Positions 12,227-64,000 of a stretch of 64,000 bases of DNA are shown here, one piece after another; positions within the stretch are counted from its first letter, which is position 1; every line of letters starts with the position of its first letter. Origin of the DNA: Naegleria gruberi (lineage: Eukaryota). Position numbers and translations under genes: made by a program. The notes under the pieces are model-generated. The model searched no databases. It was not told where the DNA came from and was given only the letters and a program-made list of their open reading frames with translations. The stretch lies in assembly GCA_000004985.1 (NCBI GenBank), contig GG738864.1, one strand, 5' to 3'.

Positions 12227-12268
12227 CAATTAGAGGCATTTTCAACAAAGTATTGTCAATATTCTGAT

Positions 12269-12980
12269 TTGTTTTCAGAAATTCTAACAGATACATGGAA
12301 TGATACCTATAATTCTATTCAGGTATTTAAAAGTTGGGCTTTCTTTCCTTTTCAAAAGATTACTCAACCTTTCTTGTTCGATTCTGAACTTGCTCAGGAT
12401 TCTCCACATCTTCTCAGATACCTCATTTCATGTAAATATGGTAATTTATTGGCAGGTCAAATCCTTTCTCAAATATATCTGGTAGAAGATGAAGATGGAG
12501 ATTTATTTAGATTGGCAAAGCAATGTGGTGTCCCAGAGGAGAACTCTCCAAACTCAATTGAGCAATATCCTAATATTTTACTGAGAGGAAATAGAAAAGA
12601 GTTGAGCAATGTAAATACAGATCCCAGATTGTGGTATTTTCATCCTACATATAATTGTAATTATTCAAGATTTCCAAAAATACTTATTTGGCTTGGATTG
12701 GTATTTACTTTATTTATTTGTTTTAGGATTGAGATTTAAAGAAAATGTTGAAAAAGTTAAACCAATTCTCAAAGAGTATAATATTGGTCTCTATCATCAC
12801 TTTATTAGACAATTACTTCCAACTACTTTAGAAAGAATTGAATGTTCTAAAAAAGCAATTGCAAATGAAGATATTCAATTAATTAATACGACAACAGAAG
12901 AACCAGAAATGCTGTTGTGGAGAAGTCTTGCTCGTTTATTTGAGGAAGAAAAAACAGAGTATAAATCCTCTTCCTGCTAA
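12269..12980 (+). CDS. Hypothetical protein, probably 2 exons covering ORFs 12269..12739 and 12693..12980. The splice junction is unresolved.
   Basis: There are two overlapping open frames with a gtattt...ttttag intron-like segment at about 12709..12734. I could not find a frame-consistent junction. Confidence 0.3.
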
Positions 12981-13026
12981 CTTAACTGGATGAAGTTGTT
13001 GAGATATTACCAATAATTGGATTTCT

Positions 13027-13461
13027 TCAATTTATACTGAAAAATTCATTGTATAAAAACAGTATTCCTCCAATAATCAAGAACACCACAATCATATAGG
13101 GAAAATAGATAACCATCACAATTTCAAGAACCAACAAGATAAGAGTTACCACAGGAGTTAAGCATATTAAAGTGATAAGCAGCCAATTAGGAAGACATGT
13201 TTCATTGACATAATCTGCAGTATGAACTCTAACATAGAACAGGAAGAAATGTGCTGGGAATAAGAACATTAGAAACGGAATTCCAAGATAAGTAATCAAA
13301 CTCAACCAAGGAAGGTCCATAGTCTTTGCCAACAACTGTTGGAAGGAGTTACTTGTTATTGGGCTACTAGTAGTTGAAGTTTCGTTGGATTCTACTTCTT
13401 CATTGTCAAGATTTGTTGGCATTGGTTCACAAGTTTCCTGCGCTGTTGGTGTTTCTGACAT
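13027..13461 (-). CDS. Small hypothetical membrane protein (144 aa) with an acidic N-terminus and 3 predicted TM helices
   Basis: A real ATG is present (ATG TCA GAA ACA CCA). Hydrophobic segments include LSLITYLGIPFLMFLF, LLITLICLTPVVTLILLVLEIV and MIVVFLIIGGILFL. Confidence 0.4.
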   Translation of the reverse strand: MSETPTAQETCEPMPTNLDNEEVESNETSTTSSPITSNSFQQLLAKTMDLPWLSLITYLGIPFLMFLFPAHFFLFYVRVHTADYVNETCLPNWLLITLICLTPVVTLILLVLEIVMVIYFPYMIVVFLIIGGILFLYNEFFSIN

Positions 13462-15500: not shown

Positions 15501-17765
15501 TTACAACCATTCAAATTCAACACAATCTGGATGGTAGAGCATAACTAATGGATAGACAGGAAGTCTCACATTTTCAAAACTGGCAAGTTCCTTATCATTT
15601 TTAAATATTTGTAATAGTTGACTTTTACAATCCAAAGAAAGTGTTAACACATCTCCAGCTCCAAACTCTGCTCCTTCCTTCTTGTAGTTGTGCATGTTTT
15701 TTAATTGTTTATCCCAAACGTAACCATTTCCAGAGAGGAAGTATCCACCAACGTTGAGATTTGCATCAGTTCCATATACACCTTCATCAGCAGTATCCCT
15801 TCTCATGACTCCTATACCAACCCATGTGAATTTTACAACTTTGATTTTCCATTTGAATGTGGAATTGCAATGATTCGTAGTTCCTAGTAAGGTATCAATG
15901 AATATTGAAGAGTAGAAACCAGCTACTGTCTTGCTTATTCTGTTTTGATTGATAGCTATACAGGAACGATCACATTTGAAGGAAGGAATAGTTCCCAATA
16001 GTCTTGTTCCATTAGAAACATCCAAAATATTATCTGAATATTTCAATATTCTCAAAGATTCATTTCCAAAGAGCATAAAGAATGGGTAAACTGGCAATTT
16101 AACATGGTTGATTCTAGTTACTCTATTTGCAAAATTATTCTTATAAAATGTGAGCTCACAATTTAAACAGTTCATTTCTACAATGATAGTATCTCCAATC
16201 TTGTAACTTGCCTTTGGATCCTTGGTGAACTTTGGCTCCACAAATCGATTCCAAGTATTTCCCTCATGATCTAATAGATAGGCTCCCTCTTGATTATAAG
16301 GATTTGTAGCAAATTTAAGCTGGTTTGTTTGGTTTTCCATCAAAACACCAATAGCATTGTACTGATCCAAATAGTCAATTTTAACTCTCCATCTCTTGAT
16401 ATTATCTTCAGTTTGACATTTGTCATTCAGCCAAACATTTGAATATTCACCATTATTGGACAGTTTCCTAATCAATGAACCATTCTTTTCAATCATACTC
16501 GAATCACAATTAAATTCGTAAGAGTTGTCAAGTTTTGGAAGGTTTGGTGAAGGAAACGATGTGACTTGTTGAAAATCTAACAATTCAACAGCATCAAGTC
16601 CATAACACATCACCAATGGGACAAGTGGCAATTTGACATTCTTGAAGGATGCAATATTCACTTCTTCCTTTGTAATTGTAAATTCCCTTGTTGAACAATT
16701 CAATTCCAGAGTAATGACATCTCCAGTGGAAGATTTAATTCCAACATTGGAGTTCTTACTATCTCCATTATAGCAGCAACTCCAAAGATAACCGTTAATA
16801 GTGTACATGTATCCTCCAAAACTAATTAATGGAGAAAGATCATAGTAGCATTCCTGAGCAATTTCTTGATCAACAGCTCCAACACCAATCCAATTTGCAT
16901 GTGTCAAAACTTTGATTTTCCATCTATATATTCCATAATCCTTGGCATCTCCTAATGATTTCCTTAAAAATAGAGAAGCATATGAACCTGATGTCAATTT
17001 TTGAATAACTCCATTTGTGCATTGATAATGATGTTTAGGATAGACAAATTCGAAGGTCTGTACTGCATCCATAGCTTCAGTCTCAGTTACACCCATAAAC
17101 TCGACACTCTCAGTTCCATGCATCATGAAAGAAGGATAAACAGGTAATCCAACATTTTTCACAGAACTCACAACAATACCATTCTTTAAAAATGTCAATT
17201 GACCAATTCTTGTATCCAACTCTACTGTGATAACATCTCCAACTCCATAGCTACCTCCTTTAATCACCAAATGTTTAGTATCTCCTGCAATTCTTCTATC
17301 CCAAATATAACCATTTGCAGAAAACATAAATTGACCATGTTCATCAAATGGTGTAAATGAAAATCTGTGATCCTTGACAATTGAAGTGTTTGCAACGCCA
17401 AGAGAAAACCAAGAATTCAAATTAATAATTTTAACATTCCATCTATAAATTAAATTTCCTTCAAGTAATTTATCTACAAATACACTGGAATATCCAATTT
17501 TGTTTTTTGCAATTATTACTGATGAAGAGGATGATGAAGGAGAAATTGGATCATAGAATGATTGATCAAGTATTAATGAAGGTAATTGTGTTGTTGCTGT
17601 TACTTTTGCTGTGGTTTCTTCCTTTGATGATACAAGTGTTGTTGTTGGCTTCTTTTTCTTTTCCAAACTTTCGAATAGCAAACCAAGACCTTTCTCTGCT
17701 GAGTATTGCAATGAATCAATAGGTGGTGGATCGATGAGTTTGGCTGGTGTTGTGGATGATGCCAT
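15501..17765 (-). CDS. Protein of 754 aa with four tandem SPRY/B30.2-like repeats
   Basis: A real ATG is present (ATG GCA TCA TCC ACA). Four repeats of about 180 aa each follow the pattern W(K/R)(V/I)K(I/V)...W(I/V)G(V/I)...GY(F/L)...NGY(I/L)WD...GD(V/I)(I/L)T(L/V)...LP(V/L)YP... Confidence 0.65.
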   Translation of the reverse strand: MASSTTPAKLIDPPPIDSLQYSAEKGLGLLFESLEKKKKPTTTLVSSKEETTAKVTATTQLPSLILDQSFYDPISPSSSSSSVIIAKNKIGYSSVFVDKLLEGNLIYRWNVKIINLNSWFSLGVANTSIVKDHRFSFTPFDEHGQFMFSANGYIWDRRIAGDTKHLVIKGGSYGVGDVITVELDTRIGQLTFLKNGIVVSSVKNVGLPVYPSFMMHGTESVEFMGVTETEAMDAVQTFEFVYPKHHYQCTNGVIQKLTSGSYASLFLRKSLGDAKDYGIYRWKIKVLTHANWIGVGAVDQEIAQECYYDLSPLISFGGYMYTINGYLWSCCYNGDSKNSNVGIKSSTGDVITLELNCSTREFTITKEEVNIASFKNVKLPLVPLVMCYGLDAVELLDFQQVTSFPSPNLPKLDNSYEFNCDSSMIEKNGSLIRKLSNNGEYSNVWLNDKCQTEDNIKRWRVKIDYLDQYNAIGVLMENQTNQLKFATNPYNQEGAYLLDHEGNTWNRFVEPKFTKDPKASYKIGDTIIVEMNCLNCELTFYKNNFANRVTRINHVKLPVYPFFMLFGNESLRILKYSDNILDVSNGTRLLGTIPSFKCDRSCIAINQNRISKTVAGFYSSIFIDTLLGTTNHCNSTFKWKIKVVKFTWVGIGVMRRDTADEGVYGTDANLNVGGYFLSGNGYVWDKQLKNMHNYKKEGAEFGAGDVLTLSLDCKSQLLQIFKNDKELASFENVRLPVYPLVMLYHPDCVEFEWL

Positions 17766-28302: not shown

Positions 28303-31300
28303 TTATTCAAGTCCAAGGCTTGATGTTGACTGGTAAGCATACAAATTGCCAATGAATGAAATCTTGGCAAAATCACTAGGGAACAAACAATAAATACTAC
28401 CTTTCTTTTCACTGTCAACTGTATAATTGAGTTTAACTTTGGTTGTTGGTGAGATGGCTTGGTTAGCTTTAGAGTCCAAAACCACTTCATTGATTTCAAT
28501 TTGACAAATCTTTGATGTAAGTGAAGTGTCAATTTCCTTTGAATTTTCCACAGGTTTTCCTAATTTTTCTGCTGAAAGTTTTTCCTTGATCAAGTAGAGG
28601 GCATAATTTGACAATGCCAAACAACATTGTTCTTCCTTAGAATCAGTGTTTGTAAAGAGGACATCACAGTAGAACAATAATTGTTCATCCACACCAGAGG
28701 TAAAGACTGATGTTTGGAGGAGTTTGTGCAATCTCCAATCTACAGAAATTTCAGTATTTACAAGTTTAGAAGAAATTTGTGAAATAAACTTTGAGGTGAA
28801 TGTATCATTGCTAAAGTTGATAACATAAAAGCCCTTATTTGAAGTCTTCAGTCCGAGATACTTTCCAGAATAAGGAGAAGCAATATGCATTGCTTCTATT
28901 TGAGAGAAATTAGTAGAGCTTGATTCAGTGAGGAACAATTTACCAGTCTTGGTATCTTCTGTGTAAGTGTAGAGTCCAAACTTCTTCTCGTGAAGGACAA
29001 TAATAAGAGGCTCACCATTAATGACCACCTTGTCATAGCTCAACACATCACCAACAGAAAGACTCTTGCACAGGAGATTACTTCTTCTTACTAGAGATTC
29101 TTCTCTCAAAATTTGTTCCAATAAGGAATTTCTCAAGGAAGGAGTGGACAAGACAGAGTAATAAGAGTTAGAACTCTCAAGAGAGTTACCTGGCTCATTG
29201 GCAGTGAATGGTGATAATCTAACAATAAAGTCTAACATGTTGTACAAGTTGAATCTATCATATTTCATGTAAACACCACAAATTTCAGTAAGCATCATAG
29301 TGAGTTTTCGTTTTTGGTTCATGTATTGGGAGTGTGGATTGGAAATATTAGTTCCTGAAAATTCTTGCTTGTCACTAGTGACACTGTACAAAGGTAATGT
29401 TAACTCTTCAAGATATTGAATTCTATACAAGTTACCAAACAAAAAGTTATCTCTAGTATCATCAGAGTCTGTCGAGTGTTCAGTGATGGAATGGTAATAG
29501 AGTAATCTGAGCAAAACGGCAAAATCAGGAAGAGGAAGTATCCAGAAACTGAGCAATTGGCTTTGACAGAGATCATTCAATAACTCACTTTCGTAATCCT
29601 TATTATCATTCATTAGATGGAATGGAATAGATCTTACATTTGTTGTAATTAAATGCCACAACTTGACAAACTTGAATAAAAAGTGTCTTTCATCACTAGA
29701 AAATGGTTTGGTATGGGAGAAGTGGAATTGAATTCTATATCTGATAGTATTGTTGATTTGTTGCATTATTTGGGCTATTTGATCCATCAACTCGATAACT
29801 GATCGCCAAGCATCGGCCTTTCCTTTTTGGTTGGCAATGCTTTGGAGAGCAGTACCAGTGCTTTGAGTTTTTTGGAGAGCAGATTCCAATAAATCTGTCA
29901 TGATCTTGACAGCCAAGAGATTTAATCTATATGATCCAAATAATGTGTTAGATAAAGCCATGTAGATGAGGGAAATAATTTGTCCATTATTAATATCTGT
30001 TGGTTTGATGAGAGCAATCAATCTTAAACCAATAGTTCCAATGAAGAGATGTTTGAGTTCCTTATCTGATAAAAGTTGAGAAAGAGAAATCTTAGTAGTA
30101 TTGACAGATTGTGTAATAACATCATAAACATTGTCACGAGAAAGTTCATCAGAAAAGACGAGTCTGTAAAAGTCATTTGCCGAAAAGGAGCTCTTGACTT
30201 CATCATAGAAAGACCACATAGTAGTGAGCGGATTATGGGTGCCTTCGGTTGGTGCGTCCTTTTGCTTTTTTCTTCTCAACAAATCAACAAATTCATTCTT
30301 TGTACCAGATTTTCTGTGAATTCTTCTAATCTTGGCTGATTCGTCATTTGATTCGTCTTCCTCTTCGCTGTCATATGATGAAATATCTGTAAGAGAGCTA
30401 TCAGCAGATATAGTAAGGTCATCCTTACTGTCTTCAGAAACAGTCTTGTTGTTGGTGTGAATAAAGAATGGATTGAAAATCTTGAATGGATTATGTTTCA
30501 ACTCATCACTCCATTCTGAGGCTACGTCATCGAGAATTAATGCATGTAAAGCTCTTGAAATACTAAAGGAGCGTTCATTCCAATAGTTGGCAGAATACTG
30601 ATCAAACATACTATAGTTGAGCATTTGTACATAGTTTGGTTGTTTGATTTGGCTGGCCAGCTCTTCTGGGTTTACCCTCATGGATGATCTTTTCTTCATT
30701 CGAAGGGAATTTCTACGATTATCTTCATTATTCTTCTTTGCATTTTCTTCAGAGGAAAACATGGCCTCCATTGATTCAAAACTACGAGTTGATAATTGAA
30801 TGGATTTTCTCAAGGATTTACATCTTACTCTTCTCAATTCTGTTGTGGAGAGCTTTCCTTGGTTATTCTCAGAGAGTGCTGTTGGCTTTGAAACAAGTGT
30901 CATAATATTTTGTAATAAGGTAATAACCATTTGACGTCTTTCCTTTTGTTCCTCTCCGAATTCTTTATCGAATTTGGGTGTAGACATGGATTCCAAAGCG
31001 CCAACGAGGTTGATCATGACTCGAAGACAAACAAAGCTCGAAATGTCCAACTCTGAAATGCATTTGAGAAGAATAATATACTGATTGGAGAAGAGTGGTA
31101 AAGACTCTACAGTAAGAGTTTGATTTCTGCTGGAAGTATCACTAATTTGTATACCAATACCATTGAAAGATGCATTTTGTTCAAAGTTTTCAATAGTATA
31201 CAGTTGCGAATTTTCTCTTTCTATTTGTTGCTCTTGCTTGGTAATTAATATGAATAATTTACCATATTGCTCAAAGTCTAATTGTTCTGGAGGAGGAGAA

Positions 31301-34150
31301 GGTTGCAAAACTTTCAAGAGCCTAATACAATTATCAATCAAGTTATAATAAAGTTGCTTGGTTGATAAGTCAACTGTAAGCTGTTGAATAATTTTAAGTA
31401 ATTGTATGAGAAGGATATCCTTATATTCCGACAATAATTCTTCCTTCTTTACATGAGAAAGAATACCGAGAAGGGATGTTAATTCAAAGGAGTGGTTGAG
31501 CTTTGTTCCTCTATAACCTGCCTCTCTGGACAAGGCACTAATAGCTGTTACTACTCTCTTCAACAAATCCTTTTCAATGTTAGTCTCTCTGATTACTGTA
31601 ATAAAGCAACTAGCTGCCAATCCATTCAATTCCAAAGAACTAGAGACAGATATGGTACTATTTCCGGAATCTAGTGTGTTACTTGAGGCTGATTGCGTGT
31701 TTGTATTGACTAGTACAAGATTGAGAAGTCTAGTTTGTAAGTCAGCACAATACTTTGAATCATTGATCATTTTCAAGTGTTTGTTAATATTCAATAATGG
31801 AAGCATTTGAATGAGATGCAAAATTGTTGAAACCAATGGTACACCAAGAGTTGGATTGATGAGAATGTTTTGCAAATTTTCTTCTTGAATAAATTGAAGT
31901 AAAACATCCTGTAAATCATGGATTTGATTTAAATTGATCATTAATTGCATTCCTTGCAAACGATAGGATTCGTCAGTCATTTGATTAGAATCTCCAGCTC
32001 TAACGAGAGTTCTACTAGAGGTAACATATTGAGTTTGATGTTTGACCATCTTGTGGTGATAAATTGATAAAAGAGTGTCCACTGATTCAATAGCACCAGA
32101 TACTTGTTTGATATTCATATTAGAAATTCCAATTTGTAGAAAATGTTTCAGAGTGCCTAATAACAAATCCATAAATTTTCTTTGTTGGAACATGTCATCC
32201 TTAATTTTAGAAACATGACACACACTAGATAATGCAATTTGGATAGTTGGTAAACAGGTTGCAAAATGGGTTTGATTAAAGCCTGTTATTAATTGATGAA
32301 TGATATCATCATTGATTTCTGTACATTCTTTTTCGTCTTGAGTCTTGGCAAAGTAAACAGCTTTGGTAAGATATTCTGTGAGAGTGATGATTTTTCCAGT
32401 GAATTTTTCAGCACAGGCAGAAGTTGCAATGAAAAGTTTCAAGAGAAGATTGTACTTTTGAACTTGAGGTTGTAATACAGTTGGTTTCGTTGGAGAATTA
32501 AGGAAACCTTCATGTGATTTGATAATTACCTCCATCAAGTGATCGAAAAAGTCGGATTCAGTCATTGCCAAAACCATTGAATCATTGAAATTGAAAGTTT
32601 TGACAAGCAAGTTTGTACTCTGAATCTGAAGTTGAACAACTTCATTTGGAAGATCGTCAATCATGTTGGAGAAGGATTTGAATTGGTTGGTCATGTATTC
32701 TTGATAGAATTTGGATATGCCTTGCAATTTTTTACCTTTAGCTGCTGTCAAGAGACTATTATTAGTGTCCTCTGTAAATGATGAGCTTGGCGATTTCTTT
32801 GGTGAAATGTCATCATCGATTGGTCCAACATATGATGAACGTCTTCTATCGGAAAAGTTTGGAACAAGGAAGCTTGGTGAAGACGTATTACTTTGATCAT
32901 CTAAACTGAGTGGTTGTTTGAGTTTGATACTCATTCTGTTCAATTCTTGAGGAGTGGAAATCTTTGGTGTTGTTAAAGGATCGTAATCTTCAAAGTATTT
33001 CAATACATTGCATAAATTACTGATTGGGTGTTGGTTATATTTGCCTTTTTGACCCAATATGAATTGATGCAAGCATTGGTTGGTAATTTTGAGAATTTCA
33101 CTATTATTATTCCAGAACAAGAATTTACCCAATTCTGTGAGTCCTTGAACTTCCTCTCTTGTTGCACTGTCTAGACTCTTACTGAAAAAGCCAAAACTTG
33201 TGACAATGCAACGAATGAAACATTCTCTAGTGGTATGTGTTTCATCTCTTGAAACGTATCCCTTCAATAATTCAATAAATTTGACATAACCATTCAAACC
33301 AATAGTATTTGGGTCATCTTCATGAAGTTTCATTGAAATATCAGAAATGTTGGCTAGCAATTGTTTCATAGTTCTTAAAAGTTTTTGACCAGCAACAAGT
33401 AAATATACTTGTGAGGTATTTTCCAAAACTTCATTAATCTTTTCAAAGTGGGTTTGTTCTTTAATGCTCTCAACGATGGTTGGTCTACGTCCACTATTAT
33501 CTTCATGCATGGTTATTGGCTCATCCTTCAGAGATGTTTGCAAAACACTGAACAAATTATTAAAAGATGGAACACGTTTCATGAGACCTCTTGAAGTACC
33601 CTTCAATTGTTCACCAACTTCATCAAAGAAGAGTGGTTGAACAGTACCTTCAACACCTTGAAGAGCAGCCCTTCTTTCCTTGGAGAGAACTTCCTTTCCA
33701 TCCAGGCTAACAATTGGCAATCTGGAAATAAATAAAGTCCTATAATTCATTAATTTCATAACGAAAGGATTCGAATCAAAATTGATAGCTTTGATTTTTT
33801 TAAATCCTAACTTGAGCTCTCCTAAAAAGTTATCCAACTTTTCCTTATTCATATCCAATTGATTAAATGACATGTTCAAATCTTTCAATTTCACACAGGT
33901 GTGTAATCTTGTCAAAGATTCTAAACCATTACAAATCATGTTATACGAAATATCCAAAGATTCCAAATTGATCAGTTGTGAAATAGATTCTGGTATTGAT
34001 GAGAGCGAATTGTGTGACAAGTCCAAACGCACCAAATGTACATGAGCATTACTAAAGAGACATTTGTGAATTTCATTATGTGAGGCGTATAATCTTTTCA
34101 ATCTGGAAAATATTTCAAAATTCTTGTCAATTTCTTTAAATTGATTATTG
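28303..34150 (-). CDS. Large leucine-rich-repeat protein, exon 2 (about 1950 aa). It has N-terminal LRRs, a long helical middle and a PH/GRAM-like C-terminal region.
   Basis: The LRR segments are LRLDLSHNSLSSIPESISQLINLESLDISYNMI... This is the 1932-codon ORF. The acceptor ...aattatag|C lies upstream of the tool's TTG start. Confidence 0.65.
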
Positions 34151-42223: not shown

Positions 42224-45200
42224 TTAATGGAAGTTAGATTGAGGAGTTTCACCATTTTCCAATGTATGATGGTAGTTTTTGGTATTCTTTCGAATATGGT
42301 AAACGGTTCCAATCAGCGTTACTAACAATACACTGAATGAAATTAATGAGATTGAAACCAATGCCAGAATATATGAGTGCCCACTGCTTGCTTGAACTTG
42401 TGGAGAATAAACAGGAAGGGGGTTCACTATAGGAGTCAATACACAAGCTTGCATTGTATCAGAAACCTTATAATCACTGTTTGAGCAGTAAGGAGTCAAC
42501 ATTCTAATTCTATCACTCTCGTCGTCAGTAAAGTAAACAGATAGTCCATCACTTGAGAAGGAGAGGGAACGAGAAAAGGTTAATCTTGTTGGTTTGGCAT
42601 CACCATCCCCATTGTAACCAAAATCAAATCCTGCTATTCTTTCCACTATGGCATTCTCCTCTCTCCACAAAAGTTTGAATATTCCACTACTTGAGTGTTC
42701 CGTAAATAGAACATATTGGTCATTAGCTAGGATGCTAGCTGGGTATGACAATAAAGTGTCCTTTCCTTTTGAACCTTCTCTGATGAATGAGTGTTGATGA
42801 GGTTTTCCAATAACTGTTGAAATAATTCCTTTAGAAATCTTTCTAATAATGAAATTTCTCTGATCCACAAAGAATAAATCGCCATTCTTCGTAAGACTCA
42901 TATGAGTTGGGCTATTAAGCAAAGCTTTGGATGCATCTGTTTCATCGTTATAGCCATGAACCCCAGGAATTCCATAAAGTGTTGACATTATACCATTTTT
43001 TGAAACTTTTCTAATAACATGATGACCAGAGTCAGCAATTAAAATCTCATCCTCAGGAGTCACTATGAAAGAGCCAGGATCATATAATAGTGCCTGATTT
43101 GCTGGTAAGCCATCACCTATTCCACCGCCAATAGTTTTGACCAATCCATTCGATAGTTTTCTTATTAATCCCTTTTTAGGTTCAGTAAATAATATGTCTT
43201 GCTCTGTTTCTCCAAATGACAAGCCATTAAGGAATGTGAAATGAAACCTTGTTGGGTCACTCAAATCATTGGCAGAAACTGTAATATTTCCAACTAAAAG
43301 GGTCAATTTACCTTCTGAAAACTTGCTTAAAGAGCCAGGCAAATGTGTTACATAAATATCATCACTTTTGGAAAGAATCAAGTGTTGAGGTCCATAAACT
43401 TCAAATACTGTGGAGATATTTCCGTTTGGTGAAATCCTTTTCACTTTTCCGTCCAACATGTCTGTCATATAAATTTCTTCTTTTGAATTTACAGCAATAC
43501 TTGATGGTCTAATGAAATAGTCAGCTCCCTGTGTAACAATTTCAACCATGTCACCAACTACTTTCAAAATTCTATTATTGTTTGCATCTGCTACATAGAG
43601 TTTGTCATCTTCAGTAACATATAAACCTTCTGGGAAATCCAATTGAATATCAGTAGCTGTTCTATTTCTAATATCACTCACACCTGTAACACCACTTCCT
43701 AAAACAGTTTCCATTTTCTTTTCTTCAATATTCACTTTTTTAACTTCAGATCCTGTTGAAAAGTATATTAAACCATTTCTTTCAAAGATCGCCAGTGGTT
43801 CTTCAATGAACGTATTGATAATTGCAGAGCTATCCATTCCAACAAGAGTTGAAATAATGCCCTTCTTATTGATTGCTCTGATTCTTTGATTTTTGGTATC
43901 AGCAATTAATACCATTTCTAATTGATTGGAATAAAAGACTGATAATGGATGATAGAGGAGAGCACTTGTAGCTAATGAGCCATCTCCATAATAGTGATGT
44001 CTGGTTCCAGCAACTCGAATAACCTTCCCAGTGGCTGATGAGAATTTATAAATAGTGTCATCCTGTGTGAAATAAACATCATTGCCAACTCTTTGAGCCA
44101 TAATATTAGGGTGATTCTCCAATTTAACCTTATTTAAAGGCAAATCATCTAGGTATTTGTGAGTGGAGATGGCTGATTTTACTCCCAATGTATGAGTAAT
44201 GATTGAATTTGCAATGGTACGAATTTTAGGATATTCCAAGTGGTCGACTAGGGTAACAATATCCCTTCCATTCTTTGACGTTACATGAATGTGATGAGGA
44301 GTTGATTGGGATTGAATGGCAGGTTTACCATTACCAAAGTAGAACTTTTCACCATTACCAAAAGAATTTGTGACTTGCCCATTTCCATCAATCTTAAAGA
44401 TGATATTGCTTTGAACACTGGCTACATAAATATCAGCACTATTTTCGAATTGAATCAATGAGTAAGGAAGAGTGATTTTAGAACTTGGAATGGAGAAAAT
44501 CTTTCCTTCAGATGTTATTTTCCTAACACCATCAAAACTCAATTCTGTGAATAGGATTTCATTATTGTGGTTGACAAAGATCTTGTGAGGTACAATACTG
44601 ACATTCGTGGCGATGTAACCATCAATAACAGGAAGATCTACTCCCTTACCAGCAATGATTGTAACAATACCATTCTCAACCTTTCTAATATTATAGGTAT
44701 CAGTAATGTAAACTATTGTCTTTCCACTCTTTGAATCATACTTTACAAAAACAGAACTAGGATTAGTCAAGAGATCATTTGATTCCACAACAGAATCATC
44801 AGCATCTCCACTCTTTCCACATTTTCCAGCAACTATTGTAATGTTACCACTCGATAATTCAATCTTCCTTATCCAATGATTGTGTGTTTCAACAACGTAC
44901 AAATATTCCTCACTTCCTTCACTGGAATGAAAAAGATCTTGAATTTGTAAAAAACCAGGATTTTCTACAGTTGTTTCTGAATCAACTTGACACCTCTCAT
45001 TATTTCTACTATTAGAAGCCACTAGAACAATCCTTCCACTTGAATCAATCTTTTTAATTTCATTTCCAAAAGTTTCCACAAAGTAAACTTGCCCACTCTT
45101 CTTGGAAACAGTCAAGGCATGAGGAGAGATTTTCTGTTGTGTGGCCATCTGTGATTCAAACCATCCAACAAAACCAGAAACTCCAGCAATAACCTCAACA

Positions 45201-45532
45201 ACCTTAGAAGGCTCACCCTCAATAAGAGATAACCTCTTTATCAGACCACTCATTCCATCTACAACAAATAGATAATTTTGATAGTAATCCATTGATAGAG
45301 GTCTTCCGATTGGCAATTCATCAGGTGATAATAATGTTTCTCCACCAGCAATGGTTGAAATATTGTACTGGAGAGGAGCATACCTTTGACCAGCTTGTTC
45401 ATTCTTCCTTAATTGCTGACTTGAAACCAGCCTCGTCATTATGATCATCACAATAACACTCATCATTGGCATTATTCTTCTAAGAGTTGTTATTACTTTC
45501 ATTGTTGATGAGGAAGGAACGGAGGAGGACAT
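42224..45532 (-). CDS. NHL-repeat type I transmembrane protein (1102 aa) with a multi-blade beta-propeller ectodomain, a single C-terminal TM and a short tail
   Basis: A real ATG and a signal-like segment MPMMSVIVMIIMTRLVSS are present. NHL-type repeats are IYVTDTYNIRKV, VLIADTKNQRIRAI, LYVADANNNRILKV and ILIADSGHHVIRKV. The TM is ILALVSISLISFSVLLVTLIGTVY. Confidence 0.75.
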   Translation of the reverse strand: MSSSVPSSSTMKVITTLRRIMPMMSVIVMIIMTRLVSSQQLRKNEQAGQRYAPLQYNISTIAGGETLLSPDELPIGRPLSMDYYQNYLFVVDGMSGLIKRLSLIEGEPSKVVEVIAGVSGFVGWFESQMATQQKISPHALTVSKKSGQVYFVETFGNEIKKIDSSGRIVLVASNSRNNERCQVDSETTVENPGFLQIQDLFHSSEGSEEYLYVVETHNHWIRKIELSSGNITIVAGKCGKSGDADDSVVESNDLLTNPSSVFVKYDSKSGKTIVYITDTYNIRKVENGIVTIIAGKGVDLPVIDGYIATNVSIVPHKIFVNHNNEILFTELSFDGVRKITSEGKIFSIPSSKITLPYSLIQFENSADIYVASVQSNIIFKIDGNGQVTNSFGNGEKFYFGNGKPAIQSQSTPHHIHVTSKNGRDIVTLVDHLEYPKIRTIANSIITHTLGVKSAISTHKYLDDLPLNKVKLENHPNIMAQRVGNDVYFTQDDTIYKFSSATGKVIRVAGTRHHYYGDGSLATSALLYHPLSVFYSNQLEMVLIADTKNQRIRAINKKGIISTLVGMDSSAIINTFIEEPLAIFERNGLIYFSTGSEVKKVNIEEKKMETVLGSGVTGVSDIRNRTATDIQLDFPEGLYVTEDDKLYVADANNNRILKVVGDMVEIVTQGADYFIRPSSIAVNSKEEIYMTDMLDGKVKRISPNGNISTVFEVYGPQHLILSKSDDIYVTHLPGSLSKFSEGKLTLLVGNITVSANDLSDPTRFHFTFLNGLSFGETEQDILFTEPKKGLIRKLSNGLVKTIGGGIGDGLPANQALLYDPGSFIVTPEDEILIADSGHHVIRKVSKNGIMSTLYGIPGVHGYNDETDASKALLNSPTHMSLTKNGDLFFVDQRNFIIRKISKGIISTVIGKPHQHSFIREGSKGKDTLLSYPASILANDQYVLFTEHSSSGIFKLLWREENAIVERIAGFDFGYNGDGDAKPTRLTFSRSLSFSSDGLSVYFTDDESDRIRMLTPYCSNSDYKVSDTMQACVLTPIVNPLPVYSPQVQASSGHSYILALVSISLISFSVLLVTLIGTVYHIRKNTKNYHHTLENGETPQSNFH

Positions 45533-47304: not shown

Positions 47305-47375
47305 GCGTCGATGGTTTAGTGGTAGAATACGGCGTTGCCATCGCCGTGACCCGGGTTCAATTCCCGGTCGACGCA
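47305..47375 (+). tRNA. tRNA-Gly (anticodon GCC)
   Basis: The 71-nt sequence is GCGTCGATGGTTTAGTGGTAGAATACGGCGTTGCCATCGCCGTGACCCGGGTTCAATTCCCGGTCGACGCA. It has a 7-bp acceptor stem GCGTCGA/TCGACGC, a D-arm, the anticodon loop TTGCCAT and a T-arm GGGTTCAATTCCC. A T-run (TTTTT) lies about 15 nt downstream. Confidence 0.88.
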
Positions 47376-53629: not shown

Positions 53630-54988
53630 ATGACAAGAGAAATCATTTCCATCTCCGTAGGTCAATGTGGTAACCAAATTGGCCAACAATTCTGGAGAAC
53701 CATCTCCCAAGAACATGGATTATCAATGGATGGTCATTCAACCAACACTGCTTCTCCACTCGAAAAGGAAAATCTCGGTGTTTACTTCTCCGAATCATCC
53801 GACAGATATGTCCCACGTGCTGTTTTAGTTGATTTGGAATCAGGTGTTTTGGATTCTGTTAAATCCTCATCCCAAGGTCAATTATTCCGTCCAGATAACT
53901 TTATCAATGCTGCCTCAGGTGCTGGTAACAATTGGGCTAAAGGTTTCTACACTGATGGTACTGAATTAATTGATGAAATTATTGATACTATTAGAAAGGA
54001 AAGTGAATCATGTGATAGTTTGCAAGGATTCCAATTAACCCACTCATTGGGTGGTGGTACTGGTTCTGGATTAGGTACCTTGTTAGTCTCCAAAATTAAG
54101 GAAGAATTCCCAGATAGAATGTTGGCTACCTTCTCAGTTTTTCCAAGTGCTAAAGTTTCTGATACCGTTGTTGAACCATACAATGCTACTTTGAGTATTC
54201 ATCAATTGATTGAAAATGCTGATCAAGTTTTCACTATTGATAATGAAGCTCTTTTTGATATTTGCACAAAGAGTTTGAAATTGGCAACTCCAAACTTTGA
54301 AGATTTGAATCAATTGATTGCTTCTGTCATGTCTGGTGTTACTTGTAGTTTGAGATTCCCAGGTCAATTGAACTCTGATTTGAGAAAATTGAGTGTTAAT
54401 TTGGTTCCATTCCCAAGATTGCACTTCTTTATGGTTTCAAATGCTCCAATTGTTGCTGAATATAACAAGCAATACCATAACTTGTCAATTGCTGAATTGA
54501 CTTCTCAAATGTTCTCCAGAAAGAATATGTTTGCTGCCTGTGATCCAACTTCAGGTAAATACTTGGCTGCTAGTGCCATTTTCAGAGGAGCCAACTTGTC
54601 AACCAGTGATATCGATCAACAAATGTTGAGTCTCCAAACCAAATCCAAAGATAATTTTGTTTCATGGATTCCAAACAATATCAAATCATCTGTTTGTGAT
54701 GTAGCTCCAAAGAATTTGCCAGTTTCTGGAACTTTCATTGGTAACACAACTGCCATTCAAGATGTTTTCAAGAGAATTGGAACTCAATTCCATCAAATGT
54801 ATAAGAAGAAGGCCTTCTTGCATTCTTATATTAATGAAGGAATGGACCAAATGGAATTCACTGAAGCTGAAGCTAATATGAATGATTTGATTAATGAATA
54901 TCAACAATATCAAGATGCTACCATTGAAGATGATGTTGATGGTGGTTTTGGAGGTAATGCTGATGATGAATTGCAACAACAAGAATAA
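53630..54988 (+). CDS. tubB: Beta-tubulin, a highly divergent single-exon gene
   Basis: The motifs are [28 protein letters not shown] and [34 protein letters not shown]. By eye it is about 65% identical to canonical beta-tubulin. It has an extra Thr after Met1 and an acidic C-terminal tail. Confidence 0.9.
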
Positions 54989-59009: not shown

Positions 59010-59379
59010 ATTTGGATGTAATGGAGGTATTCCAGGTTTAGTTTTTGATTATATTCACAAGGATGGTTTAGTGTCTGATGCTTGTTTCCCATACTTGTCC
59101 TATGATGGTAATACCCATGTTAAGTGTCCTGATTTCTGCTATAACAACAAAACCAAGTCATTCAAGAGTGATAAGCATTTTGCTGATAAGGTTTATCATG
59201 TTGGTGAATTTTTGGAAGATAAAGCAAAACGTGTTTTGGAAATTCAAAAAGAAATCTTGACCCATGGACCAGTGAATGCTGATTTTATGGTCTATTCTGA
59301 TTTTACAGTGTACAAGAGTGGAGTTTACAGACATCAAACTGGATCTTTTGAAGGAATTCATGCTGTTAAAATTATTGGA
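59010..59379 (+). CDS. Cathepsin B-like, exon 3 (occluding-loop region and active-site His)
   Basis: The exon reads FGCNGGIPG...HGPVNADFMVYSDFTVYKSGVYRHQTGSFEGIHAVKIIG. Confidence 0.8.
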
Positions 59380-59444
59380 GTAAGTTGTAATATTCAGTGC
59401 TCTAGATATTAATGGATTACTAAAATTATTTAAATTTGAAATAG

Positions 59445-59538
59445 TGGGGAACTGAGAATGGAGTTGATTATTGGTTGATTGCCAATTCGTGGGGAACAAC
59501 ATTTGGTTTGCAAGGATTTTTCAAAATTGTTAGAGGAG
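59445..59538 (+). CDS. Cathepsin B-like, exon 4 (active-site Asn)
   Basis: The exon reads WGTENGVDYWLIANSWGTTFGLQGFFKIVRG. Confidence 0.8.
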
Positions 59539-59609
59539 GTAAGTTTATACATCTTGAAGAGAAAAGTAGTAATTAATAATTAAAATACCTTTGATTTTCT
59601 ATGTTATAG

Positions 59610-59662
59610 TGGACGAATGTGGTATTGAATTGTCTGTATATGCTGGTATTCCAAAACTTTAA
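59610..59662 (+). CDS. Cathepsin B-like, exon 5 (C-terminus VDECGIELSVYAGIPKL, stop)
   Basis: It matches cathepsin B RGQDHCGIESEVVAGIP. All four introns are GT-AG and 45-72 nt long. Confidence 0.75.
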
Positions 59663-60090: not shown

Positions 60091-63000
60091 ATGACTTCAC
60101 GAGTGTATCCTCAAACACAAAACACAACAAGAGCTGCTACAGGAAGTGTAGTGCTTAACGACGCTGAAAGTTCCTCTCAATTTGGTGCAGGAACTTCTGC
60201 CACTTCAAGCACATATGCTTCTTCATTGGGTGGGAAAAGTGTTGTAAACAATGCTGGAATAAGTATATTCTCATTGATAACAACTCTCAGACCTAAAGAT
60301 ACACTAGTTGGTAACGAGAATACTTACATGTTGCTTGGAATGGTATTCTATCACATTTACTTGATATACAACTCTGTAATACTCTCATCAATTTCAACAC
60401 CAATGATTAGAGATGGCGATTCTACATTGTGGGGAGTTATACCTGGTTGGATATGGAGAGCTTTGTATTTTCCAATTAATTTGGCATCTGAATTCTATCC
60501 ATACTTTTTAATTATTGCACTATCAATACTATTTGTAGTTATACAAGTATGTACTTGTTTTGGAATTTATTATTGCAAGTGGGCTGCAAGAAAGGGAGGA
60601 AAATTGTTTGAAAAGATCAAGACATTTCTATTGAATTCTTTGATATTCCAAAGAACTTTCACTTTATTCATCTTGTCCATTCATGCAATTTTGTTATCTC
60701 CAAACACCAAGAATGGTACTTTATATTACTTTCCAAGTCAATCTTTCAGCTCAGTGATACAAATAGTTTGTGCAGTAATAGGATGTGTTGGAATATTGTT
60801 GAATATAGGTTTGACGGCCATTGCAACACTATTAACTGGCGAAACAAGCCCTCAGTTGGGTCGAAGAATTTGGTTTTCATTGTACTCTATTTCACCATTT
60901 ATGTTCTTTGATTTTGTTAATCAACTAAGTTTAATTTCAACTATTATTTGTGCAGAACCCTATACTTATATTGCTTCTATTATGAAAGTTGTAATGAATT
61001 TATTACTACTAGTAGTAACCGTGAAATCCTTGCCATTCTTTAGAAAATGGGAGAATTGCTTCTATTTAGCATTGATTAGTTTGAAAGTTTTTACTCCAAT
61101 ACCACCATTAATTTTGCCATTTCTTTCTTCTAATCAATTAAATCAACAAGAGATTGGTGGTATCGTGACAGGTGTTACTTTTGCAACTGCTGTCATTTCT
61201 TTTGTATCTGGATTCATTATTTCTTACATTTGGTTAGCATTTAAAATGAAATCAATCAGAAACATACTATCCAATAAGGAAGACAGCTCAGCAACATTGC
61301 TTCTTCTTGAGAAATCAAAAAAGAAACAAGAGAACCTTTCACTATTCATAAGATTTGCAAACAATAGTTCTCCAGCAATGAAATCGAGGGAAGGAAGTGA
61401 TTTTGACTTGGCCAAACATGCTGTCAACACACTTGTCAAACCAATTGAAAATGTTGAACTATTAATTATCAGTTCCTTATTTGTTTCTTTTGGTGGAATT
61501 CTAGATTATGATTATTCCCAATCATTTAGTATTGGATTGGCTCTATTACAAAAAGCTCAACGAATTTCACCTTCGCTATCTCAGATGTTCAATATCATGT
61601 TAAGAAATGAAGAAGTTGAGTTTCATGCCTTTCATGGAAATAATCTTGAAGTTTTGAGAAAACTTGTAATGGTTGAAAAGAAAGTGAAATCATTGTCTAG
61701 ATGTCACAAGTCATTCTTTAAAGAATTATTGAATGACAAACCATCTATTGGTAAATTAGAACATATTAATAGTACCATTTGTTCGATTTATAATGAATGT
61801 GATACAATTTATGATAATTTACTAGTTTCTAATAGATCCAACAAGACACTACTCAGATCATATGCCTCCTATTTGGAAAAATACAAGTGGGAAATCAATT
61901 TAGCAAAACAATTATTTGAAGAAGCCCAAGACAATGATGAAGATAAGAATAAGCAACAGTTTAAGGCACCAGAATCTTCGTTCCATAAAGGAAACACATC
62001 TAGATTTAGTATAGATTCACAAAGAGCTAATATGGATGGTTGGGATTCTGTCAGTGTTGCTGGTGCAGACGAAAACGATGAAGATAGAAAAGATCATGTT
62101 TTGAGAATGGCAATCAACTCTCCCATGTCAACTGTTGCTTATTCCACATTATTTTTCCTTTTCTGTACCCTCTCTGTACTAACTATTTGTATCGTAGCAC
62201 CAGTTTCACTTGTATTTACTCAGAGTATCAATGAGAGAATGACAATGCAAGAGCAGGTTTGCTTAATGACCTCAGTTCCATACAAATTATTAACTCAGGT
62301 TCTAGCGCTTCAAGCAGAATATAGTTTGAGAGGAAATAATACTGAGAAATTACTTAATTCTACCATTGATTATACCAATAACTTGTTGGATACTGTAAAA
62401 ACAGTAGTAACAGCAGGAGACAATAACATGTTAATGCCAGAAGTTGCAAGAGAATATTTGAAAAATCAATATGAACTTAAACTTCCAATTACTAATGATT
62501 CATTAATTGGAAATGAAATACCAGGATATACAATCACTAATACCTCTATTCAATTCTACTTATCTTCCGTGTACACCCATGGAAAGACCTTGCTACAAGA
62601 ATTTAATGATATGGACCAACTGGTTTCGAATACCGATGAGAATTATGCTTTGTTATTTATATTCTACAATAGAATTCCAATGACTCAAGCTTTCAATAGT
62701 TTGTGTTCTAAATTTGTAGAAGAAAGTGTAGCTTCAATTGAAACGAATTTCGAACAATTGTGGATAGTTACAGTTTCTGTTCTTGTTACTTATTTGAGTA
62801 TTTCACTAATTTTCTTTGCAGTAATATTCACACACTCTAGAAGACTTGTTGTTGAGCTTAAAGAAATATTCAGAAGAATAACAAAAGATGAAATAGGAAA
62901 AGTTTATCACAGTTTTGAAAAGAAAATAGACGATTCTATTAGCTCTTCAAATAACCTTTTGAAAATGAGCAATATCCTAATGTTTGGAAGTTTCCTCTTT

Positions 63001-64000
63001 GTAATCGTCATTTGTTTATGTTCCCTACTAGTTGTAGTCGAGCTCAACAGCAATACCAAACAAAGTGCTCGAACCATGAATGTTGTTGGTTCTATTAATG
63101 CAGTTTCGCTTAGAACTTCAAGAACCAACTTTAGATTAATCTGGTTTATTGAAAGGATAAAGTATCTAACAATGGATCCTTTATCTGTTAACCAGGAAAA
63201 TAAGCAAGACTTGCTTGATTTGAGAACATATTGGAATTATGTTGTGGTGGGTGATGAATCAACTTCTTACACCTCTGCCGTGTTTGGAAAATATGAAGAT
63301 GTCGATTATCTATTATCCGATCTTTGTAATGATACTGTTTCAATGGCTGATCCTTGTCATAGTTTAACTGTTGCATTGACTGATTACATTACAAAAGCTC
63401 TAGATTATAATGAAGTATTCTATTACCAAAAAAAGAGTAAGACGTTTATTCAAAATGCATATTTTGCAAAAGTATTCTATGTCACACAGACAGTTACTTA
63501 CAATTTACAAACTTTAATCTCTGCTCTTGTAACTCATGAAAAGGTTTCAAATATTGGGTTAACAGCTAGTATGATTGGTTTGTGTTTCGTTTCTACAATT
63601 TTATATGCTGCCATTTGTTATTCATCCTTGAATAGGTATTGGAAGGAAAGAGCTTGTTTGAGAATGATGTTGAATTATATCAATATAGATCTAATTGAAA
63701 GTAATTTGATATTGAGAGAGTATGTCATGTCAAATGTTGTTCCTTCAAAGATTTCCTCTAAAATAGTGCCATCCTTTGAAACTGAGCAAGAAAAGGATGA
63801 CAAGATTGAAATGGTAAAGACAGTATTGAATGGAGGTGTTGATTCTGCAATTATTTGTGATAAGGATGGAAATATTACAATTTTCAATAATTCTGCTGAG
63901 GAAATGTTCGGCTATTCCAGATCACAAGTTTTAGGGTTACCAATTCAAACCCTATTTACCTCTGAATATTCTGAGAGACTCATGAAATTGATTTCAACTG
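60091..64000 (+). CDS. Large polytopic membrane protein with a PAS domain near residue ~1270. It is 5'-complete and runs off the window end.
   Basis: The ATG is at 60091. I spot-checked the frame at 62881 and 63901 and found it open. The ORF track lists no plus-strand ORF here, because no stop is reached. At least 10 hydrophobic helices are present. The PAS-like stretch is DSAIICDKDGNITIFNNSAEEMFGYSRSQVLGLPIQTLF. Confidence 0.55.
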   Translation, partial: MTSRVYPQTQNTTRAATGSVVLNDAESSSQFGAGTSATSSTYASSLGGKSVVNNAGISIFSLITTLRPKDTLVGNENTYMLLGMVFYHIYLIYNSVILSSISTPMIRDGDSTLWGVIPGWIWRALYFPINLASEFYPYFLIIALSILFVVIQVCTCFGIYYCKWAARKGGKLFEKIKTFLLNSLIFQRTFTLFILSIHAILLSPNTKNGTLYYFPSQSFSSVIQIVCAVIGCVGILLNIGLTAIATLLTGETSPQLGRRIWFSLYSISPFMFFDFVNQLSLISTIICAEPYTYIASIMKVVMNLLLLVVTVKSLPFFRKWENCFYLALISLKVFTPIPPLILPFLSSNQLNQQEIGGIVTGVTFATAVISFVSGFIISYIWLAFKMKSIRNILSNKEDSSATLLLLEKSKKKQENLSLFIRFANNSSPAMKSREGSDFDLAKHAVNTLVKPIENVELLIISSLFVSFGGILDYDYSQSFSIGLALLQKAQRISPSLSQMFNIMLRNEEVEFHAFHGNNLEVLRKLVMVEKKVKSLSRCHKSFFKELLNDKPSIGKLEHINSTICSIYNECDTIYDNLLVSNRSNKTLLRSYASYLEKYKWEINLAKQLFEEAQDNDEDKNKQQFKAPESSFHKGNTSRFSIDSQRANMDGWDSVSVAGADENDEDRKDHVLRMAINSPMSTVAYSTLFFLFCTLSVLTICIVAPVSLVFTQSINERMTMQEQVCLMTSVPYKLLTQVLALQAEYSLRGNNTEKLLNSTIDYTNNLLDTVKTVVTAGDNNMLMPEVAREYLKNQYELKLPITNDSLIGNEIPGYTITNTSIQFYLSSVYTHGKTLLQEFNDMDQLVSNTDENYALLFIFYNRIPMTQAFNSLCSKFVEESVASIETNFEQLWIVTVSVLVTYLSISLIFFAVIFTHSRRLVVELKEIFRRITKDEIGKVYHSFEKKIDDSISSSNNLLKMSNILMFGSFLFVIVICLCSLLVVVELNSNTKQSARTMNVVGSINAVSLRTSRTNFRLIWFIERIKYLTMDPLSVNQENKQDLLDLRTYWNYVVVGDESTSYTSAVFGKYEDVDYLLSDLCNDTVSMADPCHSLTVALTDYITKALDYNEVFYYQKKSKTFIQNAYFAKVFYVTQTVTYNLQTLISALVTHEKVSNIGLTASMIGLCFVSTILYAAICYSSLNRYWKERACLRMMLNYINIDLIESNLILREYVMSNVVPSKISSKIVPSFETEQEKDDKIEMVKTVLNGGVDSAIICDKDGNITIFNNSAEEMFGYSRSQVLGLPIQTLFTSEYSERLMKLIST

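What the first reader, a model, noticed from the sequence alone, without database searches (positions are those of the whole stretch)
60091..64000. Unlisted giant ORF: a 10-plus-TM protein with a PAS domain that continues beyond the window
The ORF track misses it because no stop is reached. It starts at ATG 60091 and has at least 1303 codons. It contains multiple hydrophobic helices grouped in two clusters separated by a charged loop. A PAS-like fold lies at the very end (…IICDKDGNITIFNNSAEEMFGYSRSQVLGLPIQTLF…). The domain downstream of the PAS lies beyond this window, so the output module cannot be named from this window.
Basis: seen in the sequence. Interest (0 to 1): 0.5.

Follow-up and report, generated by a model that had tools for sequence, protein, structure and literature searches.

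The report
Naegleria-type membrane PAS adenylate cyclase gene
The open reading frame is real: it is the first ~80% of a large membrane-bound signalling enzyme of Naegleria-like amoebae, and close relatives show that the missing end is a cAMP-making cyclase domain, so it is an ordinary member of a known but unstudied gene family.

Summary
Window 60091-64000 (+) is open for 1303 codons with no stop (chance about 3e-43) and starts at a conserved Met. It has about 12 transmembrane helices (8 + 4) and ends in the N-terminal half of a PAS domain.

The window is eukaryotic and Naegleria-like. Two collinear relatives cover all 1303 residues: an uninterrupted metagenomic gene (88% identical, 1606 aa) and N. 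gruberi NAEGRDRAFT_68774 "FM180" (70%, 1630 aa). Both continue into a full PAS domain and a class III cyclase domain (PF00211, E about 1e-53). That domain carries all six canonical catalytic residues with the adenine-specifying Lys/Asp pair. About 300 residues therefore lie beyond the window, and the output is predicted to be a homodimeric adenylate cyclase.

Verdict: a new member of a known kind, of modest interest.

The parts
60091..64000 (+). Open reading frame, 1303 codons, truncated at the window end. It is the N-terminal ~81% of a protein of about 1606-1630 aa.
   Evidence: no stop; chance about 3e-43; 100% of the query covered by the 88% and 70% relatives of 1606 and 1630 aa.
60091..60327 (+). 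aa 1-79: Ser/Thr/Gly-rich N-terminal tail, predicted cytosolic.
   Evidence: Sequence; low family conservation; topology by the positive-inside rule.
60328..61242 (+). aa 80-384: bundle of 8 transmembrane helices, including the conserved cytosolic motif PFFRKWEN between TM6 and TM7.
   Evidence: Hydropathy; AlphaFold helices with pLDDT mostly 85-94; family consensus PFxRRxENS.
61276..61953 (+). aa 396-621: cytosolic helical-repeat domain. Pfam TPR_TmcB (PF25474) matches aa 520-621.
   Evidence: E=2.7e-10, 40.7 bits against 27; 30 of 31 family members; helices, pLDDT 80-90; among the best-conserved stretches of the membrane module.
61954..62073 (+). aa 622-661: acidic, Ser-rich disordered linker.
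   Evidence: pLDDT below 50 at model residues 562-601; low conservation.
62131..62835 (+). aa 681-915: sensor-like unit 1 (TM9, helical ectodomain aa 709-892, TM10). It has four N-x-S/T sequons, and C724 and C872 are nearly invariant in the family.
62836..62961 (+). aa 916-957: short Lys/Arg-rich cytosolic connector carrying the highly conserved motif KDE(I/V)GK(V/I)YH.
   Evidence: 9 K/R in 42 aa; conservation peak at aa 926-950.
62962..63624 (+). aa 958-1178: sensor-like unit 2 (TM11, helical ectodomain aa 986-1155 with C1079/C1089, TM12).
   Evidence: profile-profile similarity to unit 1, in register (hhalign probability 73%, E=3e-5; controls below 1%).
63625..63813 (+). aa 1179-1241: cytosolic juxtamembrane linker with the conserved motif LRMMLNY, leading into the PAS domain.
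   Evidence: Family consensus LRxMLNY; conservation.
63814..63999 (+). aa 1242-1303: N-terminal half of a PAS domain, cut by the window end.
   Evidence: PAS_9 E=1.1e-9, profile positions 2-51 of 103; PAS fold E=4.3e-7. The relatives complete the PAS domain and add a cyclase.

Best explanation
This is the 5' ~81% of a single-exon gene (across the part seen here) of a Naegleria-like heterolobosean amoeba. It encodes a receptor-type, membrane-bound adenylate cyclase. The predicted layout is: cytosolic N-tail, 8-TM bundle, cytosolic TPR-like (TmcB-type) domain, then two tandem units of 'TM, helical ectodomain, TM', then a juxtamembrane helix and a cytosolic PAS domain. Beyond the window, by orthology, come a coiled-coil transducer segment and one class III catalytic domain. 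That domain must homodimerise to form two active sites that make cAMP. The proposed mechanism is that a signal sensed by the ectodomains and/or the PAS domain passes through the last TM helix, the conserved LRMMLNY linker and the PAS domain to the dimeric cyclase and changes its cAMP output. Shown: the ORF, the domains present in the window, the orthologues' cyclase domain and catalytic residues, the family and its taxonomic range, and the predicted fold. Inferred: topology, receptor function, ligand-dependent regulation, and cAMP (not cGMP) as the product.
Confidence: 0.8

Rival explanations
1. The PAS domain is the true sensor (of an intracellular ligand, redox state or gas), and the 12-TM module only anchors or localises the enzyme, for example to a membrane subdomain or the flagellum.
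For: PAS is present in 29 of 31 family members, immediately upstream of the cyclase. It is the most conserved block within the window. Its nearest solved relatives are sensor PAS domains of DosP and FixL. UniProt names the N. gruberi orthologue 'FM180'. From memory only (unverified), this may mark it as a flagellar-motility-associated gene family.
Against: A simple anchor would not need a 1200-residue module conserved end to end, with invariant ecto-loop Cys, sequons and cytosolic motifs. No heme-ligating His or LOV-type Cys motif is conserved.
Confidence: 0.2
2. The membrane module is a transporter or channel fused to a cyclase, as in the ion-channel/cyclase and P-type-ATPase/cyclase fusions of alveolates. 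In that case transport or membrane potential, not ligand binding, would control cAMP synthesis.
For: The 8-TM bundle has no assigned function. Very weak Foldseek hits include EAAT/GltPh transporters and TTYH channels (E 0.01-1, TM-score <=0.2).
Confidence: 0.1
3. The enzyme is a guanylate cyclase, not an adenylate cyclase.
For: PF00211 covers both activities. Database names for paralogues include 'Guanylate cyclase domain-containing protein'. ANP-receptor and rhodopsin guanylate cyclases also match at E of 1e-35 to 1e-40.
Against: The orthologue has Lys and Asp at the two base-specifying positions (KIKTIGD, YDLWG), where guanylate cyclases have Glu and Cys/Ser. The best PDB matches are adenylate cyclases. 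The rule for assigning specificity comes from established knowledge of class III cyclases, not from an assay.
Confidence: 0.06
4. It is not a functional single gene: a chance ORF, a pseudogene, or several exons or genes read through.
For: The genome has introns (one GT..AG intron is visible in the papain-like gene just upstream). A relative on contig L002 is split at the PAS boundary by the gene caller.
Against: The chance of such an ORF is about 3e-43. The alignment to two relatives is collinear and full length. Substitutions are biased to the third codon position, 245 against 111 and 51. The whole span gives confident predicted folds.
Confidence: 0.02

Closest known systems
Naegleria gruberi NAEGRDRAFT_68774 (UniProt 'Uncharacterized protein FM180', 1630 aa) and an unnamed ENA metagenome protein (P0001, 1606 aa)
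   Same: Orthologues. They are 70% and 88% identical over all 1303 residues and collinear, with the same TM pattern, TPR_TmcB and PAS.
   Different: They are full length and show the PAS completion and cyclase domain that the window lacks. Neither has been characterised experimentally. The window comes from a distinct but related organism.
Heterolobosean family combining the TmcB-like membrane module with PAS and a class III cyclase (many paralogues in N. gruberi, N. fowleri, N. lovaniensis, Willaertia magna and Acrasis kona)
   Same: The same end-to-end architecture at 19-45% identity. It is part of the large Naegleria cyclase expansion noted in genome papers (at least 81 cyclases; PMC9928731).
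   Different: These are paralogues, and the ectodomains are among the less conserved parts. This would fit different ligand specificities, but that is an inference.
Mammalian membrane adenylate cyclases AC5, AC8 and AC9 (class IIIa)
   Same: They are the best solved-structure matches for the orthologue's catalytic domain (E about 1e-60). The helical segment preceding the catalytic domain also aligns, and both have 12 TM helices in total.
   Different: The mammalian enzymes are pseudo-heterodimers: two 6-TM blocks and two complementary catalytic halves (C1, C2) in one chain, regulated by G proteins. This protein has one catalytic domain that carries all six residues, so it is expected to work as a homodimer. 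It has an 8+4 TM layout with large ectodomains, a TPR domain and a PAS domain.
Bacterial four-helix-bundle sensor domains (4HB_MCP/TarH, PilJ, NIT and the NarQ/TorS type) of chemoreceptors and histidine kinases
   Different: No sequence-level relationship was detected. The fold is generic, since designed bundles score similarly. Here two units sit in tandem in one chain and may form an intramolecular pseudo-dimer, which is an inference; the bacterial sensors form homodimers. A small beta hairpin is inserted in unit 1.
Dictyostelium TmcB ('tiny macrocysts protein B'), which gives Pfam PF25474 its name
   Same: The cytosolic helical-repeat domain matches PF25474 above its gathering threshold.
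   Different: Whether TmcB shares the 8-TM bundle or the ectodomains could not be tested: afdb50 was unavailable, the alignment-based searches returned nothing, and no literature was held. Apart from the Pfam family's name and description, what is said about TmcB here rests on memory only.

Membership tests
Class III nucleotidyl cyclase (PF00211), adenylate-specific, homodimeric | The catalytic domain PF00211 is present in the protein. | not testable with these tools
   The domain lies beyond the window end. It is present in both orthologues (E=2e-53 and 6e-53) and in 26 of 31 family members.
Class III nucleotidyl cyclase (PF00211), adenylate-specific, homodimeric | Six canonical residues in one domain: two metal-binding Asp, the substrate-specifying Lys and Asp, and the transition-state Asn and Arg. 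| tested here: met
   Tested on the 88% orthologue P0001, not on the window itself. The alignment to AC5/AC9 C1 and C2 shows D (FFSDMVGFT), D (TIGDAYF), K (KIKTIGD), D (YDLWG), and N and R (TINTASRM).
Class III nucleotidyl cyclase (PF00211), adenylate-specific, homodimeric | Enzymatic production of cAMP. | not testable with these tools
   This needs an enzyme assay.
PAS domain superfamily | A Pfam PAS model is matched above its gathering threshold. | tested here: met
   PAS_9 scores 39.0 bits against a 27-bit cut-off, and the PAS fold 30.4 against 22.6. Only the N-terminal half (profile positions 2-51 of 103) is inside the window. The domain is complete in the orthologues.
PAS domain superfamily | A known cofactor signature: the FixL/DosP heme-ligating His or the LOV flavin-binding Cys motif. 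| tested here: not met
   The family consensus shows no conserved His in the F-alpha region and no NCRFL-type motif. Only weak matches to DosP PAS-B and FixL were found. The cofactor or ligand is unknown.
TmcB-type TPR domain (PF25474) | The Pfam model is matched above its gathering threshold. | tested here: met
   40.7 bits against a 27-bit cut-off, at aa 520-621; 30 of 31 relatives match.
Heterolobosean family: TmcB-like membrane module + PAS + cyclase | End-to-end similarity across the ~1200-residue membrane module with the same domain order. | tested here: met
   phmmer with aa 1-1200 found many 1400-1800 aa proteins aligned from about residue 20-100 to about 1200 as a single stretch, with E down to 1e-145. 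Domain content is, and the taxa are.
Bacterial 4HB_MCP / TarH / NIT periplasmic sensor domains | Sequence-profile membership in the Pfam families. | tested here: not met
   No such family was reported at E<=1.
Bacterial 4HB_MCP / TarH / NIT periplasmic sensor domains | An antiparallel four-helix bundle flanked by two TM helices on the extracytoplasmic side. | tested here: inconclusive
Mammalian-type 2x6-TM pseudo-heterodimeric adenylate cyclase | Two 6-TM blocks, each followed by a catalytic half (C1, C2). | tested here: not met
   The protein has an 8+4 TM layout, and the orthologues have a single catalytic domain.

The most novel reading that the evidence does not exclude
The ~1200-residue membrane module may be an undescribed class of eukaryotic surface receptor confined to Heterolobosea. 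In this reading, two tandem ectodomains resembling bacterial chemoreceptor four-helix bundles arose by internal duplication and form an intramolecular pseudo-dimer. That pseudo-dimer would bind extracellular ligands and, together with an 8-TM bundle and a cytosolic TPR scaffold, drive a PAS-coupled adenylate cyclase directly, giving one-component chemosensing without G proteins. The many paralogues would then be a diversified chemoreceptor repertoire, possibly linked to flagellate-stage behaviour (the orthologue's name is 'FM180').
Probability: 0.3. Interest if true: 0.55.

Novelty: new member of a known kind. Interest (0 to 1): 0.27.

Why it matters
For this scan the result is mainly housekeeping. 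An ORF that the ORF track missed is a real gene, and its missing output domain can be named. More broadly, Naegleria and its relatives carry dozens of these large PAS-cyclases, and none has been studied. The models suggest a receptor-like membrane module with no solved-structure counterpart beyond generic four-helix bundles. If the ectodomains do bind ligands, the family would be a lineage-specific chemosensory system feeding cAMP signalling, which controls encystation in other amoebae (PMC4399386) and might be relevant to N. fowleri biology.

Tried and rejected
1. The afdb50 fold library was not installed, so the models could not be compared with AlphaFold models of Dictyostelium TmcB or other eukaryotic proteins.
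2. Two alignment-based homologous-protein searches returned no hits at all, not even the known relatives. The queries were A5 (8-TM + TPR region) and A7 (TPR only). The first was probably swamped by low-complexity words. No relatives outside Heterolobosea were recovered this way.
3. Literature searches for TmcB / 'tiny macrocysts' found nothing relevant.
4. The Naegleria genome paper and the differentiation paper (Fritz-Laylin 2010) are not held, and searches for FM180/FM179 found nothing relevant. The meaning of 'FM' is therefore from memory only.
5. Foldseek against the PDB found nothing significant for either model.
6. phmmer of aa 1-1250 against PDB sequences gave only chance-level hits to designed proteins.
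7. I suspected that P0009 and four other long members were cyclase-free TmcB-type proteins or had other outputs. I rejected this. Four of them end shortly after the PAS domain. P0009 ends at the PAS boundary, aligns over aa 7-1252, and has a PAS ORF directly downstream on its contig.
8. The look-up of encoding contigs found no record for the N. gruberi orthologue, so synteny with N. gruberi was not checked.
9. A heme-type or LOV-type PAS domain was considered, but no conserved signature supports either.
Full report

Yes. Translating window 60091-64000 on the + strand gives 1303 codons without a stop. The frame is closed just upstream by several stops, and ATG 60091 is the first Met. From the window's base composition (33% G+C; stop probability 0.072 per codon), the chance of 1303 open codons is about 3e-43. 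The ORF lister skips it only because it runs off the window end.

Kyte-Doolittle scanning finds eight hydrophobic helices between aa 80 and 384. Four more lie at aa 681-708, 893-915, 958-985 and 1156-1178. Pfam finds the N-terminal half of a PAS domain at aa 1251-1299 (PAS_9, E=1.1e-9, above threshold, profile positions 2-51 of 103). It also finds a TmcB-type TPR domain at aa 520-621 (E=2.7e-10).

**2. What organism and what gene?**

The window is eukaryotic. It contains a tubulin gene, REJ/EGF, NHL, SPRY and LRR proteins. A papain-family gene with a short GT..AG intron lies just upstream of the target.

The homologue search returned two full-coverage relatives:
- P0001 is 88% identical and 1606 aa long. 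It sits on a 5.2-kb ENA metagenome contig as one uninterrupted ORF.
- P0002 is 70% identical and 1630 aa long. It is Naegleria gruberi NAEGRDRAFT_68774, UniProt 'FM180'.

The three-way alignment is collinear from the shared N-terminus MTSRV.PQ to the last window residue, with only small indels. There is therefore no hidden frameshift or intron in this stretch. Against P0001's gene, 211 codons differ synonymously and 149 non-synonymously. Differences by codon position are 111/51/245, the pattern expected under purifying selection.

**3. The missing output domain**

Both relatives complete the PAS domain and then carry a class III nucleotidyl cyclase domain (PF00211, E=2.3e-53 and 5.7e-53). About 300 residues (roughly 0.9 kb) therefore lie beyond the window.

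Compared with solved structures, the orthologue's C-terminus best matches mammalian AC5, AC9 and AC8 (E about 1e-60) and aligns to both catalytic halves. A single domain retains all six canonical residues:
- the two metal-binding Asp of C1 (FFS-D-MVGFT and TIG-D-AYF);
- the Lys and Asp of C2 that specify adenine (KI-K-TIGD and Y-D-LWG);
- the transition-state Asn and Arg (TI-N-TAS-R-M).

By the established rules for class III cyclases, which I apply from general knowledge, this predicts a catalytically competent homodimeric adenylate cyclase. The segment EEKKKSEDLLLNILP before the domain aligns with the helix that precedes C1 in AC5. This helix is typical of class IIIa enzymes.

**4. The family**

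An exhaustive HMMER search with aa 1-1200 (PAS excluded) against 1.84 billion representatives found only 100 clusters. Of these, 65 have E<=1e-10 and 26 have E<=1e-30. Many are 1400-1800 aa proteins that match as one stretch across the whole module.

Every cluster that carries a name comes from Heterolobosea: N. gruberi (many paralogues), N. fowleri, N. lovaniensis, Willaertia magna and Acrasis kona. The rest are unnamed metagenome or read-archive assemblies.

Among 31 long members, 30 have TPR_TmcB, 29 have PAS and 26 have the cyclase. Four of the five exceptions end shortly after the PAS domain. The fifth, P0009, ends at the PAS boundary. It aligns over aa 7-1252, and a separate PAS ORF follows immediately on its contig. 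These are truncated or split gene models, and no alternative output domain was seen.

The Naegleria pangenome paper counts at least 81 cyclases in the genus (PMC9928731). I found no experimental work on any member of this particular family.

**5. Anatomy and topology**

The positive-inside rule, the placement of N-x-S/T sequons and the conserved cysteines give one self-consistent topology:
- The N-terminus is cytosolic, followed by 8 TM helices.
- A cytosolic region (aa 385-680) contains the TPR-like domain and a disordered acidic linker.
- TM9 is followed by an ecto-loop (aa 709-892) with four sequons and the nearly invariant C724 and C872, then TM10.
- A 42-residue K/R-rich cytosolic connector carries the conserved KDE-IGK-VYH motif.
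- TM11 is followed by an ecto-loop (aa 986-1155) with C1079 and C1089, then TM12.
- The conserved LRMMLNY linker then leads into the PAS domain.

AlphaFold2 with a 37-sequence family alignment gave a confident, almost all-helical model of aa 61-1240 (pLDDT 82.7, pTM 0.59). A sub-model of aa 672-1190 scored pLDDT 84.9 and pTM 0.80. In both models the ecto-loops consist of long helices continuous with the flanking TM helices. The first ecto-loop also contains a small beta hairpin.

Profile-profile comparison of the two 'TM, ecto, TM' units gives an in-register match (hhalign probability 73%, E=3e-5, 123 columns). Controls against the 8-TM region score below 1%. This suggests an internal duplication but does not prove it.

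**6. Structural neighbours**

Foldseek against the PDB found nothing significant for either model. The best hits were weak TPR proteins and, at chance level, EAAT and TTYH membrane proteins.

Three caveats apply:
- The tool does not report which model residues aligned.
- Pfam sees no such sensor family in the sequence.

I therefore treat this as 'works like / looks like a TM-flanked four-helix-bundle sensor', not as family membership.

**7. Mechanism (inferred)**

This is a receptor-type adenylate cyclase. The ectodomains and/or the PAS domain would sense a signal. The signal would then pass through TM12, the LRMMLNY linker, the PAS domain and the pre-catalytic helix to a homodimeric catalytic domain.

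Published chimera and lipid-regulation work shows that the membrane domains of class III cyclases can act as receptors (PMC4821796; bioRxiv 10.1101/2024.08.06.606792). cAMP signalling components (PKA, RegA) are conserved in Naegleria (PMC4399386).

The PAS cofactor is unknown. The nearest solved PAS domains are DosP PAS-B and FixL, at weak E-values. The family consensus has no conserved heme-ligating His and no LOV-type Cys motif. The functions of the 8-TM bundle and the TPR domain remain unexplained.

**8. Rivals**

I considered four alternatives:
- The PAS domain is the only sensor and the membrane part is a mere anchor or localiser (0.2).
- The membrane module is a transporter or channel fused to a cyclase (0.1).
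- The enzyme is a guanylate cyclase (0.06). The Lys/Asp pair argues against this.
- The ORF is an artefact or pseudogene (0.02). This is effectively refuted.

**9. Novelty and score**

The gene is a new orthologue, from an organism 70% identical to N. gruberi at this locus, of a family already in public databases. That family is recognisable by Pfam as TPR_TmcB + PAS + Guanylate_cyc. I rate it a new member of a known kind.

The residual interest is that the family's 1200-residue membrane module is uncharacterised and has no solved counterpart as a whole. It also appears, as far as named sequences show, to be confined to Heterolobosea. Interest: 0.27.

**10. A lead I could not verify**

UniProt names the orthologue 'FM180' and its nearest paralogue 'FM179'. 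From memory, 'FM' was the Naegleria genome project's label for flagellar-motility-associated gene families found by phylogenetic profiling. The papers are not in the library, so this stays a lead for expression or localisation experiments and is not evidence.

Noticed in passing
window 1160-1591 (N gaps at about 1110-1159 and 2236-2285): There are 72 tandem copies of AAACCC (the complement of a TTTGGG telomere-like hexamer), 98% perfect, with the C-rich strand reading 5'->3' as at a left chromosome end. The array is preceded by an assembly gap and about 1.1 kb of other sequence. It is either a chromosome end joined to other sequence by scaffolding or an interstitial telomere-like array. It explains the GC skew of -0.47 in the first 2 kb.
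   Followed up: partly
window 59071-59660 (+): The immediate upstream neighbour is a papain-family cysteine protease (PF00112, E=1e-10). A short GT..AG intron is visible at about 59539-59610. This shows that the genome has introns, although the target ORF shows none.
   Followed up: partly
window 53630-54988 (+): An intact 452-aa tubulin gene (Tubulin/FtsZ GTPase domain E=1e-63, Tubulin_C E=1.6e-34).
   Followed up: no
window 2824-7887 (-): A 1687-aa ORF with EGF-like repeats and a REJ domain (PF02010, E=5e-16), i.e. polycystin-1/REJ-like. It sits next to the telomere-like array.
   Followed up: no
window 42224-45532 (-), 28303-34101 (-), 15501-17765 (-): Other large ORFs: a 1102-aa NHL-repeat / teneurin-NHL-like protein, a 1932-aa protein with N-terminal leucine-rich repeats and no other Pfam hit, and a 754-aa SPRY-domain protein.
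   Followed up: no
window 47305-47375 (+): A single tRNA-Gly(GCC) gene. It is the only Rfam or ARAGORN hit in the 64 kb.
   Followed up: yes
L002 (Logan SRR29240419 contig): 273-2291, 4252-6981, 8001-13075: A distant family member (P0009) is split by the gene caller at the PAS boundary, which probably marks an intron. The same 17-kb contig carries a second, unrelated cyclase-domain gene and a TrkH-family transporter gene.
   Followed up: partly
N. gruberi contig of 401,612 bp (from the database tables, not the window): The orthologue P0002 (FM180) and a distant family member P0031 (annotated 'adenylate/guanylate cyclase', D2VIU3) are both listed with a longest contig of the same length (401,612 bp). 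Family members may therefore be linked in N. gruberi.
   Followed up: no
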